Below, in pieces: positions 54,749-59,045 of a DNA stretch of 64,000 bases. Position numbers and translations under genes: made by a program. The notes below the pieces were generated by a model. It searched no databases. It was not told the DNA's origin and was given only the letters and a program-made list of their open reading frames with translations. The first letter of the stretch is position 1. Each line of letters starts with the position of its first letter. Location of the stretch: the NCBI GenBank assembly GCA_010015805.1, contig ML978126.1, positions 1,302,001-1,366,000 on the forward strand, given 5' to 3'. The DNA is from Rhizodiscina lignyota (lineage: Eukaryota).

Positions 54749-56323
54749 CTACCTCTTCCGCCTCTGCCAACCCACACTCCCGCTCCTCGTGCGTCCTACG
54801 CCCAACGGCGGCGTGACGCTCAACTCCCGCACCTCCCTCACCCTCCGCGCGTCATGAGCTCTCGTGTCTCTCGCGTCGTCCTCGTCCTCGTCCTCGTCGC
54901 TTTCCTCGCTGCTCGCACTGTCTTCCTCCCGCGGCTGATGTCGCCGATACAGCGCCGGATCGCTCTCGCTCATCACCCCTCTCAGCGGCCCACGATCCGG
55001 CACCGGCACGCGCCGCACGACGTTCGAGTACGCGACGGTGTCTGCGGCTGCAGGGCCGGACACGATACGACGCGCGGACGGGTAGGCGGCGGGCCTCACT
55101 GCAGGAGGCGCGCCGCCGTTGTCTATTGCGGCGTTGTCGGGGATTTGATAGGGTGCTATGCTGTCGGGGACGGGGTACGGCGGGACTCTACGCCCAGAGT
55201 AGCGGTCGATGTCATCTGGGAGGCTGGACGTTCGGTAGCCCGTGTCGCTGCGGTATCCGTCGCGCGCCATGTTCGGGTTGTACGCGCGGTATGGGCCGGT
55301 AGGGTAAGGTGGGTCGTACGGCTGCTGAGGCAGAGGCGGAGGTGGAGCGGCGTCCTTCCTGCGATTGTGCGAGCTCGAGGAGCGCGAGTCGGGTTCTGCT
55401 CCTGCGCCAGAGAGGGCGCGTCTGCGGTCTGGATCGGAGGGGTGGCGCGCGTTGTAGTAAGATACTGGAGCGTGGGCACCGCGCGCTGAGGTATGAGGCG
55501 GTGGGGTGTCGCCGCGATCGTTGCGAGCGTAGCCTGAGGAGCGACCTTCGGTGTCGCTTTTCGCGCCCTTGCGACGCTCTTTGGAGCGAGGTGAGCTGTT
55601 AGCAGGGGGTAGGGCGAGGAGGTTGCTCTTGGGCAGTTGGCGCGACTTGCGGCTGCGGACTTCCTTCTCTGGGCTGCTGTTGCTGGAGCTGCCCTCGCGC
55701 TGGAAGGACTCGCGCGCGGGTCGTCGCGAGGCTCTCTGCCGATCGGGCTTGCGCTCTCTTGCTTTGGAATTGCGATCATAGTTTTGAATTGCCGCCAGTT
55801 CTTCGTGTGTGAGGCTGACAGCCGGCTTGCCTTTTGCCTGAGCGCGTTGAATGCGATTAAGAGCACGCTGGTACATCTCTTCCTGCTCGAAGCTCTCTGT
55901 TCTTATAAGAGGGACGAGGCTCACTCCTCCACCACTGCCACGCCTATCACTATCCTCTTCATCGGAAGACTCGTACGCCTCCCCATATGCCAGGTTATCC
56001 TCATCATTATAAACTCGATATTGTTGCAAGTCGTCGTTGAAGAAAAGTTCATCAGAAGCGAAACCAGCTCTCTGCCTAGCCCTATCATTTCTCTTGACAC
56101 CCGCCAGCACCATCCTCCGCTCCTCCTCCTCGCTATCCTCAAGCTCCTGAAATCTATTATCATATTGGAGTGTATTCCCCCACCCCACCCCTCCCGCGGG
56201 ATCGGCACCCCTACGCCGCCTCCCGGGTGGTCTTCCCCAGTCCGCATCACCAGCAGCCCTGGACTGAGGCTCTACAAAGTACGGAGTTCGCGGCCGACCA
56301 CCTAAACCGCCTCCTCGGAAAAA
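54749..56323 (-). CDS. C-terminal extension of the Yip3 long isoform (-1 frame; ~523 aa added, fusion ~694 aa)
   Basis: Stop-free frame overlapping the YIP3 3' end with no intergenic space; entered at slippery T TTT TCC. Confidence 0.8.
   Translation of the reverse strand, partial: FFRGGGLGGRPRTPYFVEPQSRAAGDADWGRPPGRRRRGADPAGGVGWGNTLQYDNRFQELEDSEEEERRMVLAGVKRNDRARQRAGFASDELFFNDDLQQYRVYNDEDNLAYGEAYESSDEEDSDRRGSGGGVSLVPLIRTESFEQEEMYQRALNRIQRAQAKGKPAVSLTHEELAAIQNYDRNSKARERKPDRQRASRRPARESFQREGSSSNSSPEKEVRSRKSRQLPKSNLLALPPANSSPRSKERRKGAKSDTEGRSSGYARNDRGDTPPPHTSARGAHAPVSYYNARHPSDPDRRRALSGAGAEPDSRSSSSHNRRKDAAPPPPLPQQPYDPPYPTGPYRAYNPNMARDGYRSDTGYRTSSLPDDIDRYSGRRVPPYPVPDSIAPYQIPDNAAIDNGGAPPAVRPAAYPSARRIVSGPAAADTVAYSNVVRRVPVPDRGPLRGVMSESDPALYRRHQPREEDSASSEESDEDEDEDDARDTRAHDARRVREVRELSVTPPLGVGRTRSGSVGWQRRKR
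56283..56323 (-). other. Putative -1 programmed ribosomal frameshift signal: U_UUU_UCC (56323-56317), 6-nt spacer, hairpin
   Basis: GCU UUU UCC GAG GAG GCG GUU UAG; stem GCGGUU (56310-56305) pairs with GGCCGC (56295-56290), extendable by GGAG/CUCC. Confidence 0.75.
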
Positions 56324-56832
56324 GCTTGTTCGATTGGTTTGTCCATGAATGAGGCGTGGCCGAGGATGGTCACGCCGGACGCGCCGATGAGCCACAGGAT
56401 GGTGCTCAGGGGCGAAGAGATGATGAGCATGGGCACGGAGAGGACAAGCAGGCCGGTGTACATCTGGGAGGTGGTGAAGCGTGCGAATCCAAGGTCGAGG
56501 TCGTTGCCGCCGAGCTTGCCGATACCCCACATGCCACCAACGACGAGGATGATGACGAAGAGGAGGGTGAGGTTGGTGAGGAGGGAGTAGATGGAGAGCA
56601 TGACGAAGACGGCGGCATAGTTGCTGCTGAAGTAGCCGAGATTGTAGTTGACTCTGCTCTGCATCTCGCCGAAGTTGGCGGGCTTCGACAGGCGCTTGAT
56701 GTCGAGAAACTCGGAGATGGGCTTCAGGTTGGTGAAGCGCTGCGCGATTGACTGCGAGCGCATCTCGGAGAAGCGGCCGGAGAGGTTGAGGCGCGAGGTG
56801 AGGGCGTCGAGAGGAATGTTGATGCGTGCCAT
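56302..56832 (-). CDS. YIP3: PRA1-family Rab-GDI displacement factor Yip3 (short isoform, 176 aa)
   Basis: KPISEFLD, SRVNYNLGYFSSNY, hydrophobic hairpins, GHASFMDKP. Confidence 0.95.
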   Translation of the reverse strand: MARINIPLDALTSRLNLSGRFSEMRSQSIAQRFTNLKPISEFLDIKRLSKPANFGEMQSRVNYNLGYFSSNYAAVFVMLSIYSLLTNLTLLFVIILVVGGMWGIGKLGGNDLDLGFARFTTSQMYTGLLVLSVPMLIISSPLSTILWLIGASGVTILGHASFMDKPIEQAFSEEAV

Positions 56833-56908: not shown

Positions 56909-57032
56909 CTGAGGAGAAGAAAATGGTCAATTAGTGGTCGTCGGTGGGTGCGAATGGCTTGATTGGGGTTGTCAACGGTGCCTGGAAAGGTGTCGAATTG
57001 AAGAGGCACAACGTGGCGAAGTGGGTGCTTAC
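56909..57032 (-). other. 5'-UTR intron of YIP3
   Basis: GTAAGC donor at 57032, CTAAT/TTGAC branch, pyrimidine tract and CAG acceptor at 56909; no ATG seen in the adjacent upstream exon. Confidence 0.6.
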
Positions 57033-57555: not shown

Positions 57556-59045
57556 ATGAGGCTATTCACCACTGTATCGGTGCTTCTTGCGGCCTTTGCA
57601 ACGGTGACAATTGCCTGGGACAAAGAAGGTATGTAAATAATAAAAAATAGTTCAGCTTCCACCTGTCATTTGCGGCTGTCTCTATGGATCTCACAAATGA
57701 ATTCAGAAATGCTCAATATCAATTCCCAACTAAAGAGAGCAACTTCACTGCGATTGTATCTCTATTCTATACTCACTTGCATTGACTCTCTCCCCAACAG
57801 ACCACGAAATCTTCCGCATCCGCGACGACCTCTCCGCCCTCGAAGGCCCGTCCGTCTCCTTCTACGACTTCATCGGCACCACCCCCTCCGCCAGCCAAGA
57901 CGACATCAATAAGGCCTACCGCAAGAAGTCGCGCATCATCCACCCGGACAAGGCGCGCCAGTCCTTCATCTCCACCTACGGCAAGTCCGCCGAGAAGGCC
58001 AAAGACAAGAAGAAGAAGCCAGGCGTGCAGGTGCGCAAGCAGCCCACCCAGCGCGAGGTCGACAAGTTCACGAAGGAGGCCACGCACAAGTACCAGCTGC
58101 TCACCACTGTTGCGAATGTGCTGCGCGGGCCGGGGAGGGAGCGGTACGACCATTTCCTGCGTAATGGGTTCCCGACATGGCGAGGAACAGGATACTACTA
58201 TACGCGTTACCGCCCCGGCCTAGGCACCGTCCTAGCCGGACTCTTCGTCTTCGGCGGCGGCCTCGTGCACTACGGCGTGCTGGTCCTGAGCCACAAGCGG
58301 CAGCGCGACTTCGTCGACCGGTACATCCGCCACGCGCGCCGCATGGCATGGGGCGACGACCTAGGCATCCAAGGCATACCCGGCGGCAGCAACGGCAGCG
58401 CGTCCGTCTCGCGCACCGAGTCTCCCGCTCCACAGGCGCCACAAGGCGACGGCGACGACGAGCAGGCGCCCGTGCCGCGGAACAGGAAGGAGCGGCGCGC
58501 GATGGAGAAGGACAGCCGCAAGAAGGAGAAGAACCCTTCGAGGACGGCGGCGCGCGCGGCCGTGGCGGCGAAGAACAGCGGCGTCAGCACGCCGCAGGAT
58601 GCGGAGCTGACGAGCGGGCCGGTGGGCACGAAGAAGCGCGTCGTTGCGGAGAACGGGAAGGTGCTTATTGTGGACAGCGTGGGGAATGTGTATCTGGAGG
58701 AGGAGACGGAGGAAGGGAGCACGCATGAGTTCCTGCTGGACGTAAGTTTCCACCTGTTCTCTCCATTCCGTGGTCATGGATAAAGCGACTGACGGTATAT
58801 TTGTGCAGCCTGACGAAATTCCCCGCCCGACAATCTATGACACTGCCGTCTTCCGCGTGCCCATCTGGGCCTACAACAAGACCGTCGGCCGCATAACCGG
58901 CAAGCCGACCATCGAGGAGATCTTGGAGGAGAACGCCGATGAACAGGACGGCGAAGGCGAAGTGGACGACGCCGTCTCCGCTGCATTGGCAAGCAACGCC
59001 AACGGCGAGGCGAGGAGGCGGAAGGCGAAATACCGGCAAAAGTAG
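57556..59045 (+). CDS. ER membrane J-domain protein, Erj5/DNAJC1-like; introns 57629-57800 and 58742-58808
   Basis: Signal peptide ..AWDKED, HPDK motif, RERYDHFLRNGFP.WRGTGYYY, TM segment. Confidence 0.9.

What the first reader, a model, noticed from the sequence alone, without database searches (positions are those of the whole stretch)
54749..56832. YIP3 carries a -1 programmed ribosomal frameshift giving a ~694-aa long isoform
Seen: the 176-codon PRA1 ORF ends GCU UUU UCC GAG GAG GCG GUU UAG. The -1 frame (UUU UUC CGA GGA GGC...) stays open for ~520 more codons to 54749. There is no intergenic space, the first in-frame AUG after the YIP3 stop is only at 56113, and a hairpin (GCGGUU/GGCCGC) starts 6 nt after U_UUU_UCC, the usual slippery site-spacer-structure layout. 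Known (from memory, please verify): a Pezizomycotina-conserved frameshift producing short and long YIP3 forms was reported in Podospora anserina. Inference: the same recoding operates here and appends a long charged, Arg/Ser/Pro-rich, probably disordered tail of unknown function. Annotation pipelines would split this into two genes.
Basis: partly seen in the sequence, partly recalled or inferred. Interest (0 to 1): 0.85.

Follow-up and report, generated by a model that had tools for sequence, protein, structure and literature searches.

The report
YIP3 gene with known -1 frameshift
This fungal membrane-traffic gene (YIP3/PRA1) carries the already published ribosomal frameshift signal of filamentous ascomycetes, which lets a minority of ribosomes add a roughly 520-residue, mostly disordered tail, so it is a real but ordinary new example.

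Summary
On the minus strand a 176-codon PRA1/YIP3 ORF (56832-56302) is overlapped by a -1 frame that stays open to 54749. The sequence U UUU UCC (56323-56317) lies seven codons before the UAG.

This is the published YIP3 -1 programmed frameshift of Pezizomycotina (Malagnac et al. 2013, PMC3777964; also listed in the Atkins 2016 review). The window has all the sequence features that paper names: the same shift site, a stem starting 2 nt downstream, and a 3-nt bulge in stem 1.

- Of 79 unnamed metagenome loci found with the PRA1 part alone, 73 carry the same cassette and an open -1 frame.
- Stem 1 and a long-range stem 2 (GGUGGUC:GACCACC) show compensatory changes.
- Synonymous sites are frozen from the shift site to stem 2.
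- The tail is homologous to the Pezizomycotina extension. It is predicted disordered except for one helical hairpin.

No RNA data exist for this organism, so frameshifting here is inferred, not shown.

One modest addition: the 3' strand of stem 2 lies outside the 59-nt fragment that the authors assayed in yeast (1% efficiency).

Novelty: already known. Interest is low to moderate.

The parts
56302..56832 (-). YIP3/PRA1 short ORF: 176 codons plus the UAG at 56304-56302, without introns
   Evidence: Pfam PF03208 E 3e-41, residues 32-172. 68-81% identical over residues 1-176 to 80 metagenome loci.
56317..56323 (-). Shift site U UUU UCC. Zero-frame codons are GCU(170) UUU(171) UCC(172).
   Evidence: The U5 run and the following C are invariant in 53 distinct relatives. 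In 26 of 73 loci a -1-frame stop confines the shift to the last 22 nt before the YIP3 stop.
56315..56316 (-). 2-nt spacer GA. Its A is column 14 of the alignment, which pairs in most relatives but is an A.G mismatch here.
   Evidence: Pair 14-53 counts: GC 20, AU 19, other 14.
56305..56314 (-). Stem 1, 5' strand: GGAG + GCGGUU
   Evidence: Helices 1 and 2 are 94.7% and 100% paired. Pair 21-40 counts: GC 48, AU 5.
56296..56302 (-). Loop of stem 1, which is the 5' strand of the long-range stem 2: GGUGGUC. Its first G is the last base of the UAG stop.
56283..56295 (-). Stem 1, 3' strand: GGCCGC (56295-56290), 3-nt bulge GAA (56289-56287), CUCC (56286-56283)
   Evidence: The paper's text describes a conserved 3-nt bulge in stem 1.
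56236..56268 (-). Hairpin inside loop 3: CUCAGUCC (56268-56261) pairs with GGACUGGG (56243-56236), with a 17-nt apical loop. It is an enlarged version of the CCCC-NNN-GGGG mini-hairpin seen in relatives.
   Evidence: centroid structures. Relatives: helix 5, 99.1% paired but no compensatory change. Locus L067 has a similar enlargement at the same place.
56226..56232 (-). Stem 2, 3' strand: GACCACC, a perfect 7-nt complement of the loop, 50 nt after the end of stem 1
   Evidence: In relatives it is the only helix of 5 or more pairs between the loop and the next ~70 nt that reaches 85% pairing. Compensatory cells occur at pairs 31-102 and 32-101.
54749..56323 (-). -1-frame extension ORF: 524 codons (P0002) plus the UAG at 54751-54749. 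No AUG before 56113.
   Evidence: 23 database homologues, 6 of them fused to PF03208 by annotators. 52 of 73 translated -1 ORFs from the loci match at E<1e-3. Alignments A1 and A4.
55751..55918 (-). Conserved helix-turn-helix of the extension (P0002 residues 136-191)
   Evidence: helices 136-163 and 173-191; 10-residue block means are 57 for residues 131-140, 89-97 for 141-190 and 62 for 191-200. It is the best conserved block of A4. Structure matches are only generic.

Best explanation
This is the orthologue of Podospora anserina PaYIP3, carrying the -1 programmed ribosomal frameshift that is conserved in Pezizomycotina.

Proposed mechanism (inferred):
- One unspliced mRNA carries both ORFs.
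- Most ribosomes stop at UAG 56304-56302 and make the 176-aa PRA1/YIP3 protein.
- A minority slip back one base on U UUU UCC (56323-56317). This may be a P-site slip of tRNA-Phe from UUU to UUU, or a tandem slip with tRNA-Ser.
- Those ribosomes read on in the -1 frame to 54749 and make a 694-aa protein. Its extra ~520 residues are mostly disordered and carry one helical hairpin, short conserved motifs and a basic C-terminus.

Proposed stimulator (inferred): a bulged stem 1 that starts 2 nt after the heptamer, closed into a pseudoknot when its loop GGUGGUC pairs with GACCACC 50 nt further on.

Shown here: the anatomy, its homology to the published cassette, and selection on both the RNA signal and the tail's protein sequence.

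Inferred: that this organism makes one mRNA, that the slip happens here, and at what rate.
For: Match to the published cassette:
- The 5' ORF is PRA1.
- The shift site, the 2-nt spacer and the 3-nt bulge match the text of PMC3777964.
- The reporter oligo printed in the paper's Methods is the same cassette. It has GUGG/CCAC where the window has GCGG/CCGC, which is a compensatory change.

Related loci:
- 73 of 79 loci, fetched with the PRA1 part only, have CUUUUUCNG within 30 nt of the stop and an open -1 frame.
- In 54 of them the frame closes 638-1679 nt after the stop (median 1340). In 19 it runs to the end of the locus.

RNA structure in 53 distinct relatives:
- 97.7% of cells are paired, against about 33-65% when the partners are slid.
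- 0 of 500 shuffles reach the observed pairing or the covariation score.
- There are 30 cells changed on both sides.

Frozen synonymous sites:
- Third positions of YIP3 codons 169-176 have 0.31 bits of entropy, against 1.03-1.80 in the other 8-codon windows.
- -1-frame third positions have 0.32 bits up to stem 2 and 1.42 beyond it.

The tail:
- Conserved blocks lie upstream of the window's first AUG (RFxELDSxE and the start of the alignment).
- Four annotated fused proteins from named fungi contain the identical FFRGGGLGGRPR.

Assembly: a 47-kb contig of run X1 covers the stretch with 0 differences. It is probably the source of the assembly, so this is not independent support.
Against: - There is no RNA, ribosome or protein evidence for this organism.
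- Folding energies are no better than shuffled sequence.
- The heptamer does not fit X XXY YYZ, and the window has an A.G mismatch at the outermost pair of stem 1.
- The published efficiency, measured in yeast, was only 1%.
- In P. anserina the long form alone did not complement the deletion, and the short form alone did. A function for the tail has therefore not been demonstrated.
- The loci are unnamed and related to each other, so the counts are not independent events.
Confidence: 0.88

Rival explanations
1. There are two genes. The 3' ORF is translated on its own, from its own transcript or by internal initiation at AUG 56113, and no frameshift is involved.
For: In 38 of 73 related loci a -1-frame AUG lies 29 or 32 nt after the YIP3 stop. 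Databases list stand-alone proteins that begin MPPWGRP.
Against: - That AUG is not conserved: in 33 loci the first AUG is 68-635 nt away, 2 loci have none, and in the window it is at +191.
- Conserved protein blocks lie upstream of the window's first AUG.
- There is no intergenic space.
- The zero-frame and -1-frame synonymous sites around the overlap are frozen.
- In P. anserina 12 cDNAs span both ORFs, and a GFP tag at the end of the 3' ORF gave an 88-kDa fusion.
Confidence: 0.04
2. An intron, constitutive or alternative, removes the stop codon and joins YIP3 to the 3' ORF.
For: - Annotators bridged the two ORFs with introns in 6 database proteins.
- A subgroup of loci does have an intron-like 50-nt insert just after the stop.
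Against: - In the window, 130 GT..AG intervals have the right length class. None matches more than 4 of 6 donor positions, and none of those matching 4 has a branch motif. All would delete conserved PRA1 sequence.
- The cassette is conserved as RNA structure, not as splice sites.
- The P. anserina cDNAs are unspliced at this place.
- The 50-nt insert of the subgroup lies after the stop and leaves the frames unjoined, in +1.
Confidence: 0.03
3. The slip happens, but the tail has no function of its own. Under this reading the frameshift mainly marks a fraction of YIP3 for degradation or tunes its level, with the extension acting as a degron.
For: From the paper's Discussion and Results:
- The long form alone is inactive in P. 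anserina.
- It appears unstable.
- It is absent from the perithecial centrum.

In the model, 401 of 524 residues have pLDDT below 50.
Against: Many short motifs, a confident helical hairpin and a basic C-terminus are conserved across divergent loci. That argues for selection on more than 'any long disordered tail'. This rival concerns what the tail does, not the recoding mechanism.
Confidence: 0.15
4. The frame break is an assembly or sequencing error in the T5 run, and the gene is really one ORF.
For: Homopolymer runs are prone to indel errors.
Against: 73 of 79 loci from many metagenome assemblies show the same break at the same place, with the stop codon retained. A contig of run X1 shows no indel, though it is probably the source of the assembly.
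Confidence: 0.01

Closest known systems
PaYIP3 of Podospora anserina and its Pezizomycotina orthologues (Malagnac et al. 2013, PMC3777964)
   Same: - PRA1/YIP3 5' ORF of about 176 codons.
- U UUU UCC at codons 170-172.
- Stem starting 2 nt downstream, with a 3-nt bulge.
- UAG inside the loop.
- A long, poorly conserved 3' ORF in the -1 frame with no known domain.
- The printed P. anserina oligo aligns base for base with the window up to the end of stem 1.
   Different: - The window has U.G instead of C-G at the top pair of stem 1, and A.G at the outermost pair.
- Loop 3 is 50 nt against about 22 nt in most relatives, because the internal hairpin is enlarged.
- The extension is 524 codons, while the published P. 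anserina long form is 61.6 kDa in all.
- Nothing has been tested experimentally in this organism.
Coronavirus IBV-type -1 frameshift signal (heptamer, spacer, H-type pseudoknot). The paper's comparison is used; the IBV dimensions are recalled.
   Same: Slippery run followed by a G-C-rich stem 1 of about 10-11 bp. Loop 1 is 2 nt, stem 2 is 6-7 bp, and loop 3 is long.
   Different: - The heptamer is not X XXY YYZ.
- The spacer to the base of the stem is 2 nt, not about 6.
- Stem 1 is bulged.
- The PaYIP3 structure did not stimulate the IBV heptamer in yeast.
Mammalian Edr/PEG10 and Ma3 -1 frameshifts (as cited in the paper's Discussion)
   Same: A cellular mRNA whose protein is extended by a -1 frameshift. 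The Edr pseudoknot also has a 3-nt bulge.
   Different: Those genes derive from retroelements. YIP3 shows no such signature (the paper's statement, not tested here).
The +1-frame YIP3 variants of Capnodiales and Ophiostomatales (paper)
   Same: The same two ORFs and the same downstream GAAGACC(A/G)CC element. Loci L079 and the L055 group are of this type.
   Different: - The window is of the -1 type with an intact U5 run.
- The +1 loci have UUUCU, and the 3' ORF is in the +1 frame.
- The L055 group also has a 50-nt intron-like insert in the stem-1 loop.

Membership tests
YIP3 -1 programmed frameshift of Pezizomycotina (PaYIP3 type) | The 5' ORF is a YIP3/PRA1 orthologue | tested here: met
   PF03208 at E 3e-41, 140.8 bits against a cut-off of 30.1. 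Full-length matches of 68-81% identity to 80 loci.
YIP3 -1 programmed frameshift of Pezizomycotina (PaYIP3 type) | A long 3' ORF in the -1 frame overlaps the end of YIP3 and is homologous to the Pezizomycotina-only extension | tested here: met
   524 codons in the -1 frame. 23 homologues, the named ones all filamentous ascomycetes, 6 of them fused to PF03208. 52 of 73 locus translations match at E<1e-3. No Pfam family matches.
YIP3 -1 programmed frameshift of Pezizomycotina (PaYIP3 type) | Shift site U UUU UCC at about codon 170 | tested here: met
   56323-56317, codons 170-172. The U5C is invariant in 53 distinct relatives.
YIP3 -1 programmed frameshift of Pezizomycotina (PaYIP3 type) | Stem-loop starting 2 nt after the shift site, with a 3-nt bulge in stem 1 | tested here: met
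   Read directly. The bulged fold is the energy minimum for relative L006; for the window an alternative register ties with it. Covariation is seen at pairs 14-53 and 21-40.
YIP3 -1 programmed frameshift of Pezizomycotina (PaYIP3 type) | Pseudoknot formed by the stem-1 loop | tested here: inconclusive
   The long-range 7-bp stem 2 is perfect in the window, 98.4% paired in relatives, with 6 compensatory cells. A compact 4-bp alternative is 86.8-94.3% paired with no compensatory change. The paper's figures were not visible, so its own stem 2 is not known to me.
YIP3 -1 programmed frameshift of Pezizomycotina (PaYIP3 type) | One unspliced, unedited mRNA spans both ORFs | not testable with these tools
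   No RNA run is listed for this DNA. The only data here are the absence of a plausible intron and the absence of intergenic space.
YIP3 -1 programmed frameshift of Pezizomycotina (PaYIP3 type) | The long protein is actually made | not testable with these tools
   Shown only for P. anserina, by a GFP fusion.
Canonical viral-type -1 PRF signal (definition recalled) | Heptamer X XXY YYZ | tested here: not met
   In U UUU UCC the last triplet is UCC, not YYZ. The paper says the same.
Canonical viral-type -1 PRF signal (definition recalled) | Spacer of 5-9 nt before the structure | tested here: not met
   2 nt to the base of stem 1. It is 6 nt only if counted to the upper helix above the bulge.

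The most novel reading that the evidence does not exclude
The functional stimulator may be larger than the element that was assayed. In this reading the loop of stem 1 (GGUGGUC) pairs with GACCACC, and this pairing spans a loop 3 that contains its own hairpin.

The pairing is conserved, and it covaries at sites that are synonymous in the -1 frame. Its 3' strand lies beyond the end of the 59-nt fragment that gave only 1% frameshifting in yeast and failed to stimulate the IBV heptamer.

If this is right:
- The full element should shift more efficiently.
- The conserved peptide WGRPP would be a by-product of the RNA pairing.
- The window, whose loop 3 is enlarged to 50 nt by an insertion that only lengthens the internal hairpin, would show that the pseudoknot tolerates a variable loop 3.
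Probability: 0.5. Interest if true: 0.45.

Novelty: already known. Interest (0 to 1): 0.28.

Why it matters
YIP3 is described by its discoverers as the first cellular, non-retroviral eukaryotic gene whose protein is extended by a -1 frameshift. It was said to have been conserved for about 400 million years.

This window adds one more orthologue. The 73 metagenome loci confirm how rigid the cassette is.

For annotation, the two ORFs should be joined as one recoded gene. They should not be split, and they should not be bridged by an invented intron, which is what public records do.

For mechanism, the comparative data point to a long-range stem 2 that the published reporter fragment did not include. 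That gives a direct, cheap experiment which could revise the reported 1% efficiency.

What the tail does remains open.

Tried and rejected
- **RNA evidence:** no RNA holder is listed. The one holder, X1, looks like the DNA source. Laying it showed only identity.
- **Own genome:** none is held for this window, so paralogues could not be sought.
- **Earlier notes of this scan:** none by place or by words.
- **Thermodynamics:** the 101-nt region, stem 1 alone and loop 3 alone fold no better than shuffles. Energy therefore gives no support, and the case for structure rests on comparison.
- **MAFFT alignment:** the window's 3' half was misaligned because of its 30-nt insertion. The two 'both-sides-changed' pairs of helix 5 are that artefact. 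Counts were redone without the window.
- **Structure string:** one string was a character too long. It was corrected.
- **Compact stem 2** (loop with UGCC just after stem 1): possible but without covariation, and only 3 bp in the window. Not excluded.
- **Fold search with the tail model:** only generic helical-hairpin matches, best Z 5.1, so no inference was drawn.
- **Pfam on the tail:** nothing.
- **Rfam:** no family. The one sub-threshold match is a chance hit on the other strand.
- **The 2008 P. anserina genome paper:** a search for it in the library did not return it.
- **P. anserina genomic DNA:** it could not be fetched, so I could not check whether GACCACC follows the published oligo.
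- **Supplementary figures S2-S4 and all figures of the paper:** not seen.
Full report
**Observation.** On the minus strand an intron-free ORF runs from ATG 56832 to UAG 56304-56302 (176 codons). It is a PRA1 family protein (PF03208, E 3e-41).
- Its last codons read GCU UUU UCC GAG GAG GCG GUU UAG.
- The -1 frame is open from 56926 to 54749. Counted from the UUU at 56323, that is 524 codons (P0002).
- The first -1-frame AUG after the stop is at 56113.
- The 622 nt of -1 openness upstream of the stop is incidental. In relatives it ranges from 22 to 589 nt.

**What is published.** The recalled paper exists: Malagnac et al. 2013, PLoS One, PMC3777964. I read the outline, sections 6, 14, 15, 18 and 19, the first of two parts of section 20, and term passages. 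I saw no figures or supplements. It reports the following.
- PaYIP3 mRNA spans two ORFs.
- Twelve cDNAs show no splicing or editing at the junction.
- A stem-loop, possibly a pseudoknot, starts only 2 nt downstream and has a conserved 3-nt bulge in stem 1.
- A GFP fusion proves that the long form is made.
- Efficiency in a yeast reporter is 1%.
- The arrangement is conserved in Pezizomycotina, apart from Ascosphaera apis and Arthrobotrys, with +1 variants in Capnodiales and Ophiostomatales.

The 2016 review by Atkins et al. (PMC5009743) repeats this; I read one passage of it. Searches for 'YIP3' with 'frameshifting', for 'PaYIP3', and for 'ribosomal frameshifting' with 'Pezizomycotina' found no later experimental work in the library.

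**Anatomy in the window** (read).

| Element | Coordinates |
|---|---|
| Heptamer U UUU UCC | 56323-56317 |
| Spacer GA | 56316-56315 |
| Stem 1, 5' strand GGAG-GCGGUU | 56314-56305 |
| Stop UAG | 56304-56302 |
| Loop, containing GGUGGUC | 56302-56296 |
| Stem 1, 3' strand GGCCGC | 56295-56290 |
| Bulge GAA | 56289-56287 |
| Stem 1, 3' strand CUCC | 56286-56283 |

With the lower helix the stem starts 2 nt after the heptamer, exactly as published. The loop GGUGGUC has a perfect complement, GACCACC, at 56232-56226. Between them lies an 8-bp hairpin (56268-56261 with 56243-56236).

**Relatives.** I searched the metagenome contigs with an alignment of the PRA1 part only (A2), so that the cassette could not bias the catch. 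Of 393 pattern matches, 221 encode a relative, and the best 80 were kept.
- In 79 loci the YIP3 stop lies inside the locus; L026 is cut.
- 73 of 79 have CUUUUUCNG within 30 nt of the stop, and all 73 have the -1 frame open.
- In 54 of them the frame closes 638-1679 nt after the stop (median 1340; only L078 is under 1000). In 19 it runs to the end of the locus.
- Stop codons are UAG 65, UAA 6 and UGA 2.
- In 26 of 73 a -1-frame stop leaves only the last 22 nt before the YIP3 stop for the shift. That stretch holds the U5 run.
- The six loci without the cassette are of the +1 kind: L079, and the L055 group of five.
- The loci are unnamed and related. There are 53 distinct -1-type sequences besides the window, so these counts are of sequences, not of independent events.

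**RNA-level selection.** On the 53 distinct relatives (A5) I counted the structure made of stem 1, the long-range stem 2 and the loop-3 mini-hairpin.
- 97.7% of cells are paired, against 33-65% when the partners are slid by 1-3 columns.
- 0 of 500 shuffles reach the observed pairing, the cells changed on both sides (30), or the covariation score.
- For 'pairs with a change on both sides' (4 observed), 42 of 500 shuffles do as well.
- For 'further pair types', 234 of 500 shuffles do as well.

| Pair (alignment columns) | Counts |
|---|---|
| 14-53 | GC 20, AU 19, other 14 |
| 21-40 | GC 48, AU 5 |
| 31-102 | GC 34, GU 12, AU 2, CG 1, other 4 |
| 32-101 | UA 47, CG 3, UG 2, other 1 |

- Columns 32 and 101 are both third positions of -1-frame codons (Gly and Pro).
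- The mini-hairpin shows no compensatory change.
- A blind scan of every helix of 4-7 pairs between the loop and the next ~70 nt found the 7-bp GGUGGUC:GACCACC helix as the only one of 5 or more pairs with at least 85% pairing.
- A compact 4-bp alternative just after stem 1 is 86.8-94.3% paired with no compensatory change. In the window it would be 3 bp.
- Third positions of YIP3 codons 169-176 carry 0.31 bits, against 1.03-1.80 in the other 8-codon windows (59 distinct CDS).
- -1-frame third positions carry 0.32 bits up to stem 2 and 1.42 beyond it. The nucleotide alignment beyond stem 2 is less reliable, which may inflate the second figure.
- Folding energies give no support.
- Rfam has no family for the element.

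**The tail.** P0002 has no Pfam match. It has 23 homologues, the named ones all from filamentous ascomycetes. Six are fused to PRA1 by their annotators.
- Four of those six contain the identical -1-frame peptide FFRGGGLGGRPR. The two Venturia records skip it.
- 52 of 73 translated -1 ORFs from the loci match the window's tail at E<1e-3 in that small database, many of them from residue 1.
- Conserved blocks lie upstream of the window's first AUG.
- A -1-frame AUG at +29 or +32 nt exists in 38 of 73 loci, but not in the other 35 (33 with a later AUG, 2 with none) or in the window.
- AlphaFold2 with 42 sequences gives 401 of 524 residues below pLDDT 50, plus one confident helix-turn-helix at residues 136-191. 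Structure matches to it are generic (best Z 5.1).

**Rivals.**
- *Splicing.* Of 130 GT..AG intervals of the right length class, none matches more than 4 of 6 donor positions, and none of those matching 4 has a branch motif.
- *Assembly error.* The same frame break occurs in 73 loci. The X1 contig shows no indel, although it is probably the source of the assembly.
- *Independent initiation.* See the tail paragraph above.

**Mechanism.**
- *Shown:* the sequence signal and selection on it.
- *Inferred from the P. anserina experiments and from conservation:* one mRNA, with a minority of ribosomes slipping -1 on the U run.
- *My own inference:* with only 2 nt of spacer, the lower helix must already be entering the ribosome's mRNA channel when the heptamer is decoded. 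The effective barrier would then be the upper helix plus stem 2, which sit at the usual distance of about 6 nt. This would reconcile the 'unusual' spacing.
- The product is 694 aa under either slip model. Only the junction residue differs.

**What may be new.** The reporter fragment printed in the paper's Methods ends before the conserved GGGGAAGACCACC element. The 3' strand of the long-range stem 2 was therefore not in the assayed construct. This could explain the 1% efficiency and the failure to stimulate the IBV heptamer. I could not see the paper's figures, so I do not know which stem 2 the authors drew.

**Verdict.** This is a real and correctly read feature. It is an orthologue of a published, clade-wide recoding event, so it is already known. 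Interest is modest.

Noticed in passing
L055:3532-3581, L072:1516-1565, L073:2932-2981, L074:3532-3581 (L066 is cut): In this subgroup, whose shift site is UCUUUCUCU, a 50-nt insert sits directly after the YIP3 UAG, inside the loop of stem 1. It has GUGAGU at its start, CUGAC near its end and UAG as its last bases. Removing it would restore the usual GCGGUCUAG|GUGGUCGGCCGC and leave the long ORF in the +1 frame. The paper says the pseudoknot is not conserved in Capnodiales, and the only intron it mentions is the 5'-UTR one. An overlooked intron could be the reason.
   Followed up: partly
L079:1003-1136: A +1-type locus. It has GUUUCUCC instead of UUUUUCC. The lower helix of stem 1 is GAAGAG/CUCUUC, with a longer bulge. 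The downstream element is GAAGACCGCC. The 3' ORF is open in the +1 frame for 1443 nt, to the end of the locus.
   Followed up: partly
window 56909-57032, minus strand: Candidate 124-nt intron in the 5' untranslated region: GUAAGC at 57032, CUAAU at 56934-56930, CAG ending at 56909, which is 77 nt before the ATG. PaYIP3 has a 173-bp intron in its 5' UTR. Read only.
   Followed up: no
Database proteins P0004, P0006, P0009, P0011, P0012, P0017-P0019, P0021, P0022, P0025: Public annotation treats this gene inconsistently. Five of the seven unfused homologues printed begin with M directly before the GRP motif (four read MPPWGRP). The fused records either bridge the frames with an invented intron that keeps FFRGGGLGGRPR (4 records) or skip the cassette altogether (2 Venturia records).
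   Followed up: partly
window 56233-56282; L067:1226-1269: The window and L067 each carry an insertion of about 20-30 nt in loop 3. In both cases it lengthens the conserved CCCC/GGGG mini-hairpin rather than disrupting it. In the protein, the window's insertion adds about nine residues before WGRP.
   Followed up: partly
L078:741-1400: The only -1-type locus whose extension closes early, 638 nt after the stop. It also has an unusual stem 2 (GCCGGUC with GACCAGC). This may be a truncated tail or an assembly error.
   Followed up: no
window 57734-58783, plus strand: The neighbouring stop-to-stop ORF contains a J-domain-like stretch with the HPD motif (translation). It is probably a divergently transcribed DnaJ-type gene that shares the upstream region with YIP3.
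   Followed up: no
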